From the NCBI GenBank assembly GCA_000002445.1, contig CH464491.1, forward strand, positions 4,800,001 to 4,864,000: a stretch of DNA of 64,000 nt, in the 5' to 3' direction. The position numbers are program-made. This document shows positions 39,001-42,000 of the stretch, piece by piece. This DNA comes from Trypanosoma brucei. Taxonomy: Eukaryota. Within the stretch, counting starts at the first letter, position 1, and the number at the start of each line of letters is the position of its first letter.

Positions 39001-42000
39001 TTCTCTTCCACATCACCGGACAGCAGCATCTTAGTGCAGATGATACTGCTGATGGCACGCTGGCACGTGCCCAAGGACCGACAAATGAAAAACGGTGTCC
39101 CAGCAAGACGCTGCTGATCCCTGTGCTGTATGATGCCGTGGCGGAAGCAAAGCAGTGTTCCCCATGAAAGGAATGCTGCTGGCTCTTGGTTTCCACTGAT
39201 GATACGGGGTACTGGACCCTGGCACCACGTTGAGGTGGCCGGCATCGCCAGGGCCATCAATTAAATCAATCCAACAGCAAACAGATTTCTTTCCCTCTTT
39301 AGGTTTGCCTGGCGCCTTGACACATTTGTCTGAGTCAGTATACTGGCCACAATTAGGGTCTTCTATTGCTGCAGTTTCATCTGTTCCTTGATTTGTCTGC
39401 GTTTCTCCATCATTGGGTTTGCAGTGGTTTCCTGTTGTAGCTGTGGTGCTATTCCATTTGATGTTAGCTGCTGTGCGGGTCGCGTTTGTTGTGTGCTGCT
39501 TGCTGTCTGCACGCGTCGCTGAAGCTTGCTGCCTATTTGGCATCATGTGTTGCTGCTGAATATCGTTTGCCTGCTTCTACCTCGCCTTAAAAGCAGACAG
39601 ATGGCCGCAGCGAAACTGTCACACGCCACTGTAAAAAAAAAACGCGTGCAGTGGCTGAGGCCACCCGCCAGCTTTTGTTTTAACAAAAAAATTTGAAACC
39701 GCGAGCAGCGGAAAGTGCAGAGCTGAGATTCACAAAACCAAAATGAAAAAAACGTAACGGCGGGGTAGTAAAAATGAATATTAGAAGAATTTAAGCTAGG
39801 ATGTCTGTATAGTGCATAAGGGAAATGCTATAGAAAAAACAGTCGTTGAATCACAAGGAAAAAAGATGGCTAATTATGAAATAATAATATTGAGTCGATG
39901 TGGGGATGGAAATAAAGGTGGAAAAAATTTAAGCAAAGATGTCTGCTGGAGAAAAAATAGTTATAGTATTCACGAAAAAAAGAGCTGCTGCATCACATAA
40001 AAATAATAAATTTAAAATTCTAACCCTAACAATGTTTTCTAGAAATTTTAACATGAATAACCCTAACCCTAAACACCCAACCAGTCCTAGCCTTTCTTTT
40101 TTCTTTTTGTTATTCGGCTTAAAATTTTAAACCTTAAATCGGGATAAAATTCATTAAAGAAAAATTACCCAAAAGTTAATTAACTTTTCAAAAAGAAATA
40201 GAAAGCTTAAGAATTCCGCTAAAAAATTTAAAAAATTAAAAAAATCAAATATGTTAAAAAATTTATATCTCAAAAAAGTCCAGCAAAAACCTAAAAAGTA
40301 AAAAATATCAAAAATTTGCAAAAATAGAAAAAATGAAAAAAAAGAGCTGAAAGACTAAACAAAAATAAAAAAACCCTAATCTTAAATATTCAAAATTAAC
40401 TCGAAAAACCTAAAAATGAAAATATCAAAAATGCCAAAAAAGGTTGGAAAATGGGGTAAAATTAAATGTCGATGCACGGCTGGGGTTGAATAAGTGTTAT
40501 TGCCCACTTTAAAAAAGAGCCGCTGACGCACAAAAAATTTTTAACTGTTAAAATAAAAATAAAATAAAAAAAGGAAAAATAAAACCCTAACCCGAATAAA
40601 TCTCCCTAAACTTCCTACCTTTCCCCCTACCTTCTTGGTTCGCAGGACAAAATATTCAACAACAAAAAAGAGGGATAATTTTTTTAGCAATCAGAAAAAA
40701 AATTCAAACGCACAGGTAGCCAAAAAATTAATTATTTTTCAGTTTATTTAGGTGTTAAAATATATCAAAATTTCAGCAAAAATCCTAAAAGTTTTATACT
40801 ATAATCAAAAATGCTTAGAATGCAGACAAAAAGTAACGCAGCAAATACCTGAGGAACAGAAACTCTCAAATTGCTAGAAAACGATGCTTCATCTTTCTTG
40901 TCTGTTTCAGCTTTTGGAAAGCATTTCGGGTCTTTTGTCTCATTAAAATCACAACCTGTTTCCTTTTTACAATCTTCGCTTGTTTTGTGCTTTTTGCATT
41001 CGTCTGCTGTTTTCGCTGGTTCTTCTGGTTTGTCTTTTTTTTCTCTTGTCATGGACTGTGTGGGGCATTTTGTTTGCATCTGCAGTGTTGCTGCTTTTGC
41101 TAAGCCAGCGCCAATTGCCGTTGCTATCCCTTCTAGATTCGAAAGCGCCTTTAGTTTCTCTGTCTTTGTTTCTGTGGCTGTGAAGTATGTTACTGTTGTG
41201 TCTGGAAGCTTGCTCCAATTTTTTGTTGTGAACTCTCCGTGATTTTCCCCATACAGTTCTTTGATCTTTGCGGCGATGGCCTGGTCGTTCTCTGGCAATA
41301 GCTTCTGTTCTAGTGGTATGCCTAGTGCTATTCTTGCCACTAGTGCTTTCATGTTACTTTCGCTGGAGTAGCTGTCGCCAGCGGTTAGGTCGGGCATCGT
41401 TTCTAGTGCTTGTACTGCTGCCGTTGCCAGCGTCGTGTTTTCGTCAAGTTCGGCGGCTGTTACTATGTCGAGTGACAGCGCATCCGCAATAATCGTTGCT
41501 AGGTCGGCGGCTTTGTTACGTTGCTCGCTGTGCTGTGCTGCGCGCCCTTCCGTATACTTTAGTCGTGCTTTTATTACGTCCAGCGCTGTTGCGCCGTTGC
41601 ACGCCTGGCCTCGCCCTTTGTTACACCCCAGTTCGACTTCTACTGCCGCATTGGGAGTCTTGAATTTGTGTTGGCGGTTTAGTAAGTCGGTCCAAGGGTG
41701 AAACCCTCACACAGTGGTGCATTGACAACCAGTTTCTGGTCTGCAACACTGGTGAGTGCACCAGGTACGCGCGCCACCACGGGGAGTCCACCCCTGATGT
41801 GACACTGTCAAGGAATTGCACAGTGTACACGTGGACATCGCTGTATTCTCCCGATAGCGATCACCATCACATATTTTTCGACGTTATTGTTGGAGACGGC
41901 ACAGATGCACTGAGTTTCCCGCGGCTTCGAAAGCCCATGTACGCATGGCTAAAAGCTGACTGGAGGAATTTCCGTCTCAAGGTTTACGAGCTCTGCAGGA

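What the first reader, a model, noticed from the sequence alone, without database searches (positions are those of the whole stretch)
39031..40765. Fossil telomere-proximal block 2, homologous to block 1 but carrying an ingi 5' fragment inside the orphan VSG C-terminal domain
This block has the same architecture as 23143-24105. VSG 40765-41700 is followed by an A-rich tract with clearer telomere units (taaccctaaccctaaa, ctaaccctaac, aaccctaaccc). The tract ends in the junction motif gcagagctgagattcacaaaaccaaaatgaaaaaaac. A homologous VSG C-terminal domain follows (…NCGQYTDSDKCVKAPGKPKEGKKSVCCW versus …KCSGYDNQLECERDNDGIPEGQPPKCGW). Here the C-terminal domain is cut exactly after CCW by a 456-bp ingi 5' end in the same orientation as the VSG. 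Two paralogous blocks imply that a telomeric VSG plus its subtelomere was duplicated into the array, with an ingi insertion after duplication.
Basis: partly seen in the sequence, partly recalled or inferred. Interest (0 to 1): 0.65.

Follow-up and report, generated by a model that had tools for sequence, protein, structure and literature searches.

The report
Telomere-type VSG flank buried in array
Inside a silent Trypanosoma brucei surface-antigen (VSG) gene array, one VSG pseudogene carries the T-rich, TTAGGG-sprinkled downstream flank normally found next to chromosome ends. The flank runs into a leftover VSG tail domain that a retrotransposon later cut, so this is a recombination scar. It resembles a second such scar in the window only in layout and two short non-coding motifs, and is not a duplicated copy of it.

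Summary
On the minus strand they are a VSG 3' half, its 16-mer, a ~1-kb T-rich tract, a 43-nt motif, a VSG C-terminal domain (CTD) and a ~452-bp ingi 5' end. The tract holds TTAGGG 6 times against 0.66 expected, only on the VSG-sense strand.

The blocks align only over ~90 nt just 3' of the 16-mer and over the 43-nt motif. The tracts share only low-complexity similarity. The orphan CTDs are 28% identical, no closer than any other CTD pair, and the upstream VSGs are unrelated.

What the blocks share is a distinct class of 3' flank. It is found at 2 of about 13 VSG 3' ends in the window. All other checked ends run into a 70-bp repeat within ~200 bp.

My reading is that two different telomere-type VSG units became internal and each was joined to a resident CTD. 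An ingi later inserted 6 codons after CCW, and a 70-bp-repeat recombination removed the rest. Telomeric origin is inferred, because no genuine T. brucei telomere sequence was reachable. This is a modestly interesting new example of a known kind of scar.

The parts
46243..46322 (-). 5' end of VSG2: start codon and signal-peptide remnant (...LLLAVVSTAVV...), abutting the 3' end of the antisense ingi.
   Evidence: translation. The upstream region 46665-47595 is 74-82% identical to the upstream region of the next cassette, 37104-37959.
41707..46242 (+). 5'-truncated ingi retrotransposon, antisense to VSG2. It splits VSG2 and replaces about 0.45 kb of its N-terminal domain.
   Evidence: RVT_1 E = 2.5e-44 in ORF 41799-44057. 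C2H2 zinc fingers in ORF 44660-45973. The 3' end, 45998-46242, is 99% identical to the RIME 3' half.
40828..41706 (-). VSG2 3' part (A-type VSG pseudogene). It ends ...SVPQVFAALLF, and the natural stop codon is lost.
   Evidence: Pfam PF00913 E = 1.3e-5. Stop-to-stop translation. 76% and 74% identity to T. brucei VSGs P0002 and VSG-1188.
40752..40827 (-). VSG2 3'UTR, with a perfect 16-mer TGATATATTTTAACAC at 40752-40767.
   Evidence: 0 mismatches. A VSG 3'-end profile matches at E = 1.1e-15.
40665..40751 (-). Anchor A: conserved element just after the 16-mer (..GGCTACCTGTGCGTTTGAATTTTTTTT..), shared only with the VSG1 flank (23960-24044).
   Evidence: ACGCA.A.GTAGCC occurs only at 23998 and 40708. 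Flank-versus-flank z = 6.5-6.9, against at most 2.5 for either flank versus any other VSG flank. blastn 69.5% over 128 bp.
39758..40664 (-). T-rich tract (46% T on the VSG-sense strand) with three clusters of TTAGGG-like units at ~40585-40640, 40372-40385 and 40020-40085. It also has internal repeat modules at 39976, 40338 and 40511, and a weak degenerate copy of the VSG2 3'UTR at ~40251-40315.
   Evidence: enrichment, no shuffle of 1000 reached it, strand-specific. (repeats). (UTR copy, z = 3.8).
39709..39757 (-). The block-1 counterpart is at 23557-23596.
   Evidence: 38 of 43 positions identical, z = 8.7. Unique to the two blocks in the window. Not a VSG tail or UTR remnant and not a generic VSG coding motif.
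39577..39708 (-). Unique spacer between anchor C and the orphan CTD reading frame. It has no match elsewhere in the window.
39254..39576 (-). Orphan VSG C-terminal domain. It is complete from the start of the domain (Pfam profile positions 2-78 of 104) and has lost its last ~26 profile positions, the GPI signal and the 3'UTR.
   Evidence: PF10659 E = 1.9e-8. Translations.
38802..39253 (-). ingi 5' fragment of ~452 bp, in the same orientation as the VSGs. It begins CCCTGGCGATGCCGGCCACC, and its ORF starts MLLSGDVEENPGP.
   Evidence: 96% identical over 247 bp to the RIME 5' half at 15829-16075. Sequence read.
38745..38801 (-). 70-bp repeat directly abutting the truncated ingi. It marks the 5' boundary of the next VSG cassette (VSG 35681-36832).
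   Evidence: TGATAATAATGATAATAAAAAACGTATGCATATACTAATATTATAATAAGAG. 71% identical to the 70-bp repeat at 50381-50470.
23143..24105 (-). Block 1, used for comparison: VSG1 stop codon 24105-24107, 16-mer 24045-24060, anchor A 23960-24044, T-rich tract 23597-23959, anchor C 23557-23596, complete orphan CTD 23143-23520. The orphan has its own 3'UTR and 16-mer (23064-23079), an array-type flank and a 70-bp repeat (~22870-22960).
   Evidence: A 193-aa protein from another dataset (P0001) is 92% identical across tract end, junction and CTD.

Best explanation
Block 2 is a recombination scar in a silent T. brucei VSG array and has no evident function.

What is shown:
- An A-type VSG pseudogene (VSG2) carries a 3' flank that differs from the ordinary array flank. 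Ordinary flanks have ~120-200 bp and then a 70-bp repeat.
- The VSG2 flank has instead a conserved ~90-nt element after the 16-mer, about 0.9 kb of T-rich DNA with TTAGGG-like units only on the VSG-sense strand, and a terminal 43-nt motif.
- VSG1, 16 kb away, has the same class of flank, although VSG1 and VSG2 are unrelated genes.
- In both cases the flank runs into a complete-from-its-start VSG C-terminal domain in the same orientation. The two domains are unrelated beyond family level.

What is inferred:
- The flank is the conserved 'telomeric VSG 3' organisation'. Each block therefore began as a telomere-adjacent VSG unit.
- Each unit became internal in one of two ways. Either a telomeric VSG and its flank were copied over the N-terminal part of a resident array VSG, leaving the resident CTD behind. 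Or a chromosome end that had lost its repeats was extended by break-induced copying that started at the hinge of another array VSG.

Later events in block 2:
- An ingi inserted into the orphan CTD 6 codons after CCW.
- A recombination ending in a 70-bp repeat then removed the rest of the ingi, the CTD 3' end and its UTR.
- Separately, a 5'-truncated antisense ingi disrupted VSG2 itself.
For: - Strand-specific telomere-hexamer enrichment in tract 2: 6 against 0.66 expected, 26 against 2.1 for permuted hexamers, none of 1000 shuffles as high.
- Half of the window's CCCTAA hexamers lie within 580 bp of this tract.
- The orientation is that of a real chromosome end, with the G-strand continuing from the VSG sense strand.
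- Tract lengths of 0.99 kb and 0.44 kb lie inside the 200-1590 nt VSG-to-telomere distance in expression sites (PMC2567434).
- TTAGGG-like repeats 3' of telomere-proximal VSGs are a published feature (PMC3708902).
- There are two classes of flank. VSG1 and VSG2 flanks match each other (z = 6.5-6.9) and neither matches any other flank above z = 2.5. The other five ends checked run into a 70-bp repeat.
- Only these two VSGs have long A-rich tracts.
- The coding parts are unrelated, so what is shared is the flank and not a duplicated locus.
- Both orphan CTDs start at the beginning of the domain (profile positions 2 and 4). This is the arrangement expected if the N-terminal domain is replaced and the resident CTD is retained, as in '3' donation' (PMC3708902).
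- The ingi fragment is 96% identical to a RIME, against ~70% for anchor A, so the insertion is younger.
- The ingi is truncated exactly at a 70-bp repeat.
- P0001, from another dataset, spans tract end, junction and CTD of block 1 at 92% identity, so that join is not an assembly artefact.
Against: - No genuine T. brucei telomere-adjacent sequence could be reached, so 'telomere-type' rests on TTAGGG-like content, orientation, length and the literature, not on alignment to real chromosome ends.
- The longest perfect telomere run is only 2.5 units.
- Block 1's telomere signal is marginal (p = 0.03).
- The same 43-nt motif lies at the distal end of both tracts, shortly before a CTD. Two independent random joins do not explain that. 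Either the motif is a normal part of the flank, or it mediates the join, or both blocks descend from one old event.
- 24.7 kb of T. equiperdum VSG-array contigs, with six VSG 3' ends, showed no such flank. Its genome-wide frequency is therefore unknown.
Confidence: 0.55

Rival explanations
1. One ancient event. A single ancestral 'VSG, telomere flank, junction, CTD' block was duplicated within the array long ago. Both coding parts were later overwritten by segmental gene conversion, and the tract changed length by slippage. Only the non-coding anchors remain recognisable.
For: - The element order is the same in both blocks, and the same 43-nt motif sits just upstream of a CTD in each.
- The anchors are 70-88% identical, which is typical of old cassette-flank paralogs in this window (68-82%).
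- Block 2's tract contains internal duplications that could account for its extra length.
Against: - It requires independent replacement of both VSGs and both CTDs while the short anchors were spared.
- There is no detectable similarity in the spacer between the motif and the CTD beyond ~50-70 nt.
- Sequence distal to the two orphan CTDs shows no specific similarity.
Confidence: 0.22
2. Not telomere-derived. The T-rich tract is simply a second class of array intergenic spacer. Its few TTAGGG units come from telomerase or microhomology repair at internal breaks, or from expansion of UTR-like T-rich motifs.
For: - The tract contains a weak degenerate copy of VSG2's own 3'UTR (z = 3.8).
- It has repeated internal modules, each with a TTAGGG-like seed, which suggests local duplication.
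- Block 1's telomere signal is marginal.
- An isolated GTTAGGGTTA also occurs next to a 70-bp repeat at ~26705.
Against: - The enrichment in tract 2 is strong and completely strand-specific, in the orientation of a real chromosome end.
- The G-rich degenerate cluster GGTAGGGGGAAAGGTAGGAAGTTTAGGGAG..TTCGGGTTAGGG at 40585-40640 looks like decayed telomere repeats.
- The literature treats TTAGGG-like repeats as a mark of telomere-proximal VSGs (PMC3708902).
- A generic VSG 3'-end profile does not match the tracts.
Confidence: 0.15
3. Blocks 1 and 2 are paralogous copies of one duplicated 'telomeric VSG plus subtelomere' unit, and the ingi inserted after the duplication.
For: Shared architecture, plus two short specifically similar anchors.
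Against: - Identity is not continuous.
- The VSGs are unrelated (E = 3).
- The orphan CTDs are 28% identical, no closer than to other CTDs.
- The tracts share only low-complexity similarity (z = 3.5).
Confidence: 0.04
4. Assembly chimera. Telomere-proximal reads were mis-joined into an array contig.
For: Subtelomeric VSG regions are repeat-rich and hard to assemble. No independent copy of block 2 was found.
Against: - There are two separate instances in one window.
- Block 1's tract, junction and CTD are spanned by an independent 193-aa translation from another dataset at 92% identity.
- The joins do not fall in long repeats.
Confidence: 0.03

Closest known systems
Conserved sequence organisation 3' of telomeric VSG genes in T. 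brucei (Aline & Stuart 1989, as cited in PMC3708902; VSG-to-telomere spacers of bloodstream expression sites, PMC2567434)
   Same: It lies directly 3' of a VSG 3'UTR and 16-mer. It is T-rich, with TTAGGG-like units on the VSG-sense strand. Its length of 0.44-0.99 kb is within the 200-1590 nt range. The same flank organisation occurs behind unrelated VSGs.
   Different: It is internal to an array. It does not continue into canonical (TTAGGG)n and runs instead into a VSG C-terminal domain. Direct sequence homology to real telomeric flanks could not be tested here.
Interstitial degenerate telomere repeats at subtelomeric block boundaries (yeast TG1-3 tracts between X and Y' elements; (TTAGGG)n-like islands between human subtelomeric duplicons). 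From general knowledge, not tested here.
   Same: Short, decayed telomere repeats, oriented like the chromosome end, sit between two sequence modules with different histories inside a subtelomere. They are interpreted as former chromosome ends or end-derived copies.
   Different: Here the modules are antigen-gene cassettes, and the distal partner begins at a defined position, the start of a VSG C-terminal domain. The repeats are much more decayed, and a conserved non-telomeric motif caps the tract.
VSG '3' donation' and chimeric 3' ends during gene conversion (PMC3708902; Pays et al. 1985, cited there)
   Same: The N-terminal part of a resident VSG is replaced while the resident C-terminal domain and 3' end are kept. 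This explains why both orphan pieces are whole C-terminal domains.
   Different: In 3' donation the incoming gene fuses in frame to the resident CTD. Here the incoming unit brought its own CTD, UTR and ~0.5-1 kb of flank, leaving the resident CTD as a separate, non-expressible fragment. The recipient is also an array cassette and not an expression site.
ingi/RIME non-LTR retrotransposon insertions in VSG arrays
   Same: The canonical ingi/RIME 5' end (CCCTGGCGATGCC...) is 96% identical to the RIME copy in the window, and the ORF begins with the 2A-like DVEENPGP.
   Different: Only the first ~452 bp remain. The 3' side ends at a 70-bp repeat and not at a poly(A) tail with a target-site duplication, so the element was truncated by later recombination.

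Membership tests
Telomere-proximal VSG 3' flank (Aline & Stuart organisation) | Lies immediately 3' of a VSG 3'UTR and 16-mer, on the VSG sense strand. | tested here: met
   16-mer at 40752-40767 with 0 mismatches. The tract follows on the same strand.
Telomere-proximal VSG 3' flank (Aline & Stuart organisation) | TTAGGG-like repeats on the VSG-sense strand. | tested here: met
   Block 2: 6 against 0.66 expected, and 26 against 2.1 for permuted hexamers. No shuffle of 1000 reached these counts, and the antisense strand has 0. Block 1 is only marginal (p = 0.03).
Telomere-proximal VSG 3' flank (Aline & Stuart organisation) | Spacer length comparable to VSG-to-telomere distances (200-1590 nt). 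| tested here: met
   About 0.99 kb in block 2 and 0.44 kb in block 1, compared with PMC2567434.
Telomere-proximal VSG 3' flank (Aline & Stuart organisation) | Continues into a canonical (TTAGGG)n array at a chromosome end. | tested here: not met
   The longest perfect run is 2.5 units. The tract is followed by a VSG CTD, an ingi fragment, a 70-bp repeat and further cassettes. At most it is a relic, not a current telomere flank.
Telomere-proximal VSG 3' flank (Aline & Stuart organisation) | Sequence homology to flanks of VSGs at real telomeres (expression sites, minichromosomes). | not testable with these tools
   No T. brucei genome or telomere sequences are searchable by DNA here. The protein route gave only three T. 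equiperdum array contigs with array-type flanks.
Recent segmental duplicate of block 1 | Continuous nucleotide identity across VSG 3' end, tract, junction and CTD. | tested here: not met
   Only two short anchors align. The tract gives z = 3.5 and the CTD DNA z = 2.0.
Recent segmental duplicate of block 1 | The flanking VSGs and the orphan CTDs are each other's closest relatives. | tested here: not met
   VSG1 against VSG2 gives E = 3. The orphan CTDs are 28% identical, and block 1's CTD is closer to three other CTDs in the window.
VSG C-terminal domain (Pfam PF10659) | Significant match to the domain profile with the cysteine pattern. | tested here: met
   E = 1.9e-8, profile positions 2-78 of 104, for block 2. 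E = 5.3e-20, positions 4-104 of 104, for block 1.
VSG C-terminal domain (Pfam PF10659) | Followed by a GPI-anchor signal, a stop codon and a 3'UTR with a 16-mer. | tested here: not met
   Block 2 is cut at 39253 by the ingi, and no remainder was found elsewhere in the window. Block 1 does have all of these features.
ingi non-LTR retrotransposon | Canonical 5' end shared with RIME, continuing into ingi-specific sequence. | tested here: met
   39253-39007 is 96% identical to the RIME 5' half. The sequence then continues for ~205 bp where the RIME switches to its 3' half.
ingi non-LTR retrotransposon | Full element with a poly(A) 3' end and a target-site duplication. | tested here: not met
   The fragment stops after ~452 bp at a 70-bp repeat.
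Interstitial telomeric sequence at a subtelomeric block boundary | Decayed telomere repeats in chromosome-end orientation, between modules with different histories. | tested here: inconclusive
   Orientation and decay fit, and the VSG and the orphan CTD are unrelated modules. Whether the distal segment has a separate duplication history needs whole-genome comparison.

The most novel reading that the evidence does not exclude
VSG arrays may contain a recurrent family of 'telomere-type flank, 43-nt cap motif, orphan CTD' scars. Each would record a telomeric VSG unit becoming internal, either by re-archiving of telomeric or expressed VSGs into the silent array or by stepwise outward growth of the array through break-induced extension of eroded ends. 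The conserved cap motif would be the preferred joint to the hinge of a resident VSG. Such scars would give a readable record of how the antigen archive grows, and direct evidence for telomere-to-archive gene flow.
Probability: 0.2. Interest if true: 0.7.

Novelty: new member of a known kind. Interest (0 to 1): 0.38.

Why it matters
How the T. brucei VSG archive is built and renewed is still unclear. In particular, it is not known whether genes that have sat at telomeres, including mosaics assembled in expression sites, ever return to the silent arrays. A VSG inside an array that still carries a telomere-type 3' flank, fused to the leftover tail of a previous resident gene, would be physical evidence for such movement or for growth of arrays by extension of former chromosome ends. 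The two short anchors defined here (GGCTACNTNTGCGT... just after the 16-mer, and TTTTGTGAA(T)CTCAGCTCTGC at the tract end) are simple probes for a genome-wide census. On its own, this single locus is a non-functional pseudogene scar built from known components.

Tried and rejected
1. The junction motif as a degenerate VSG hydrophobic-tail or 3'UTR remnant. A profile built from seven VSG 3' ends finds all 13 VSG ends but nothing in the tracts or junctions. Pairwise tests of the junction against VSG tails give z of 1.2 or less. Rejected.
2. The junction motif as a further copy of the tract's internal repeat module (39976, 40338, 40511). A profile of the three copies scores the junctions at E = 64-67 and the block-1 look-alike at 23676 at E = 12. 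Not supported.
3. The junction region as a conserved VSG coding motif. tblastn of the translated pre-CTD regions finds nothing else in the window. A full HMMER search of 1.84 billion representatives finds only P0001. Rejected.
4. The two inverted ingi pieces (39253-38802 minus strand, 41707-46242 plus strand) as halves of one element split by an inversion. The predicted flanks are not observed. The plus-strand ingi instead sits inside VSG2, whose signal-peptide end lies at 46243-46322. Rejected.
5. A retroposon 3' end with a poly(A) tail on the plus strand as the source of the A-rich tract. There is no element body upstream, only antisense CTD sequence. Rejected by inspection.
6. External DNA.
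   - Exact-protein look-ups of window ORFs and of P0001 found nothing.
   - A metagenome scan for the junction motif gave 4 unrelated chance matches.
   - Three T. equiperdum contigs (24.7 kb) have only array-type flanks.
7. Rfam scan of 38000-42000 found nothing meaningful.
8. Literature. Searches for interstitial or telomere-like repeats in T. brucei arrays found no description. Marcello & Barry 2007 and Cross et al. 2014 are not held.
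Full report
**Context.** The window is a Trypanosoma brucei-type silent VSG array. Most genes are on the minus strand. Pfam finds VSG N-terminal (A-type and B-type) and C-terminal domains, ESAG1 and an ingi reverse transcriptase. The closest database proteins are T. brucei VSGs: VSG1 is 93% identical to EATRO1125 VSG 1125.2896, and VSG2 is 76% and 74% identical to P0002 and Lister 427 VSG-1188.

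**Anatomy of block 2, read on the minus strand.**
- VSG2 is a whole array cassette. Its start codon and signal-peptide remnant lie at 46322 down to 46243.
- An antisense, 5'-truncated ingi occupies 41707-46242.
- The last ~880 bp of the VSG2 coding sequence run from 41706 to 40828, ending ...AALLF with the natural stop lost.
- The 3'UTR carries a perfect 16-mer, TGATATATTTTAACAC, at 40752-40767.
- Next comes a ~90-nt element containing GGCTACCTGTGCGT (anchor A).
- A ~0.9-kb tract follows, 46% T on the VSG-sense strand.
- The 43-nt motif GTTTTTTTCATTTTGGTTTTGTGAATCTCAGCTCTGC (anchor C, 39757-39709) follows the tract.
- A ~130-nt unique spacer separates anchor C from a VSG C-terminal domain (Pfam PF10659, E = 1.9e-8, profile positions 2-78 of 104).
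- The domain reads ...KKSVCCWIDLIDG and is then interrupted at 39253 by the canonical ingi/RIME 5' end (CCCTGGCGATGCC...).
- The ingi fragment runs ~452 bp to ~38802. There it abuts a 70-bp repeat (38801-38745) that opens the next cassette.
The ingi cuts 6 codons after CCW, and 39031 is only a stop codon inside the ingi.

**Is the telomere signal real?** It is real in block 2.
- On the VSG-sense strand of 39760-40750, TTAGGG occurs 6 times against 0.66 expected from dinucleotide shuffles.
- The six circular permutations of the hexamer occur 26 times against 2.1, and telomeric 8-mers 17 times against 0.19. No shuffle of 1000 reached any of these counts, and the antisense strand has none.
- Half of the window's CCCTAA hexamers lie within 580 bp of this tract.
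- The orientation is that of a real end, with the G-strand continuing 3' from the VSG sense strand.
- The longest perfect run is only 2.5 units.
- The units fall in three clusters associated with internally repeated modules. There is also a weak degenerate copy of VSG2's own 3'UTR (z = 3.8).
- In block 1 the signal is marginal: permuted hexamers 6 against 1.7, p = 0.03.

- blastn aligns the blocks only at 23960-24076 against 40665-40786, 69.5% over 128 bp.
- Smith-Waterman with shuffle controls adds the 43-nt junction match (38 of 43, z = 8.7).
- It shows only compositional similarity in the tracts (z = 3.5) and none in the CTD DNA (z = 2.0).
- MAFFT extends the junction match to at most ~50-70 nt.
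- At protein level the two orphan CTDs are 28% identical. That is no closer than either is to other CTDs in the window, and block 1's CTD is closer to three others.
- VSG1 and VSG2 are not detectably related (E = 3).
- Elsewhere in the window, cassette flanks are 68-82% identical over hundreds of bp. The anchors, at 70-88%, therefore show family-level similarity and not a recent duplication.

**What the two blocks do share.** They share a class of 3' flank.
- The five ordinary array VSG 3' ends I compared, including the orphan CTD of block 1, continue after the 16-mer with TTTT(T)GATAAAA-like sequence. Each reaches a 70-bp repeat within ~120-200 bp.
- VSG1 and VSG2 instead share GGCTACNTNTGCGT..ATTTTTTTT, a pattern found only at these two places.
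- Their first 120 nt after the 16-mer match each other at z = 6.5-6.9, but neither matches any other flank above z = 2.5.
- Only these two have long A-rich tracts, out of about 13 VSG 3' ends detected by a profile.
- Unrelated VSGs carrying the same flank organisation is what the literature describes for telomeric VSGs. [quoted passage not shown]
- Expression-site VSGs lie 200-1590 nt from the telomere repeats (PMC2567434). Both tracts fit that range.

**What the junction motif is not.**
- It is not a VSG tail or UTR remnant.
- It is not a significant member of the tract's internal repeat family.
- It is not a generic VSG coding motif.
- It is not part of a widespread protein. HMMER against 1.84 billion representatives returned only P0001.
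- It is not an Rfam RNA.
- Its four exact matches in metagenome contigs are unrelated chance hits.

**Independent support for the joins.** P0001 is a 193-aa stop-to-stop translation. Its UniParc accession lies in the same range as a protein that clusters with Lister 427 and EATRO1125 VSG entries. It is 92% identical to block 1's ORF across the tract end, the junction and the whole CTD. The tract-junction-CTD join of block 1 therefore exists in a second dataset and is not an assembly artefact. No equivalent was found for block 2.

**Interpretation.**
- Shown: a distinct, shared, non-coding flank class behind two unrelated VSGs.
- Shown: strand-correct decayed telomere units in block 2.
- Shown: each flank is followed by an unrelated but complete-from-its-start CTD.
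- Shown: a younger ingi insertion, truncated at a 70-bp repeat.
- Inferred: the flank is the telomeric VSG flank, so each block began as a telomere-adjacent VSG unit that became internal.
- Two routes fit equally well. In the first, a telomeric VSG and its flank are copied by gene conversion over the N-terminal part of a resident array VSG, leaving the resident CTD. This is an untidy analogue of 3' donation.
- In the second, an eroded chromosome end is extended by break-induced replication that starts at the hinge of another array VSG. Break-induced replication is the documented repair route for VSG-region breaks that lack a homologous template (PMC12137147).
- The shared 43-nt cap motif is not explained by random joins. 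Either it is a normal distal part of the flank, or it favours the join, or both blocks descend from one very old event whose coding parts were later overwritten. I cannot separate these readings without genome-wide data.

**Limits.** No T. brucei genome or telomere DNA is searchable with the tools given. The only related DNA reached was 24.7 kb of T. equiperdum array contigs, which have only array-type flanks and no junction motif. The held literature contains no description of internal telomere-type flanks in T. brucei arrays. The most relevant archive papers are not held, so prior description cannot be excluded.

**Verdict.**
- The locus is a non-functional scar built from known components: a VSG pseudogene, a telomere-type flank, an orphan CTD, ingi fragments and a 70-bp repeat.
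- Its modest interest lies in being possible physical evidence that telomeric VSG units enter or found array positions, and in providing two short probes for a census.

Noticed in passing
window 41707-46322: VSG2 is one cassette split by an antisense, 5'-truncated ingi (41707-46242). The VSG start and signal-peptide remnant lie at 46243-46322, right against the ingi poly(A) end. About 0.45 kb of the N-terminal domain is missing, so this was an insertion with a target deletion or a later deletion.
   Followed up: partly
window 40765-40830: VSG2 has lost its natural stop codon after ...AALLF. The ORF reads through the 3'UTR and ends at a stop codon (40765-40767) that overlaps the 16-mer.
   Followed up: no
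window 15829-16327 (+): A complete RIME. Its 5' half is 96% identical to the ingi 5' fragment at 39253-39007. Its 3' half is 99% identical to the ingi 3' end at 45998-46242.
   Followed up: partly
window 13472-14476 (+): An intact 334-aa ESAG1 ORF (Pfam PF03238, E = 3.8e-113) lies inside the silent array, on the opposite strand to most VSGs and close to the RIME.
   Followed up: no
window 38990-39030 (-): The ingi 5' ORF begins MLLSGDVEENPGP, a 2A-like 'self-cleaving' peptide motif. It is intact in this fragment.
   Followed up: no
window 23650-23735 (-): In block 1 a sense-strand GGGTTAAGG unit (23722-23735) is followed ~70 nt later by an inverted C-strand unit, CTAACCCT (~23650-23660), just before the junction motif. 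The head-to-head arrangement would suggest an end-to-end fusion, but it rests on single units (antisense 8-mer count 1 against 0.03 expected).
   Followed up: partly
window 39976-40552: Tract 2 contains three copies of a ~42-nt module (AAAAAAGAGCTGCTGCATCACATAAAAA... on the plus strand). Each lies next to a TTAGGG-like cluster, with spacings of 362 and 173 bp. This suggests the tract grew by internal duplication.
   Followed up: partly
window 50710-52224 (-): An intact 504-aa ATG-initiated ORF in a VSG cassette position has no Pfam match at E of 0.01 or better. A VSG-type 3' end is detected at ~50668.
   Followed up: no
window 26705-26714 (-): An isolated GTTAGGGTTA lies immediately upstream of a pair of 70-bp repeats, downstream of the VSG at 26948-27613. 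It may be chance or a very short telomere-like seed.
   Followed up: no
window 23467-23739 (-) and P0001: Block 1's reading frame is open for ~70 codons upstream of the CTD, through the junction motif and into the tract. It stays open in the 92%-identical P0001. There is no sign of coding constraint, and the open frame is probably due to the C/T-rich composition.
   Followed up: partly
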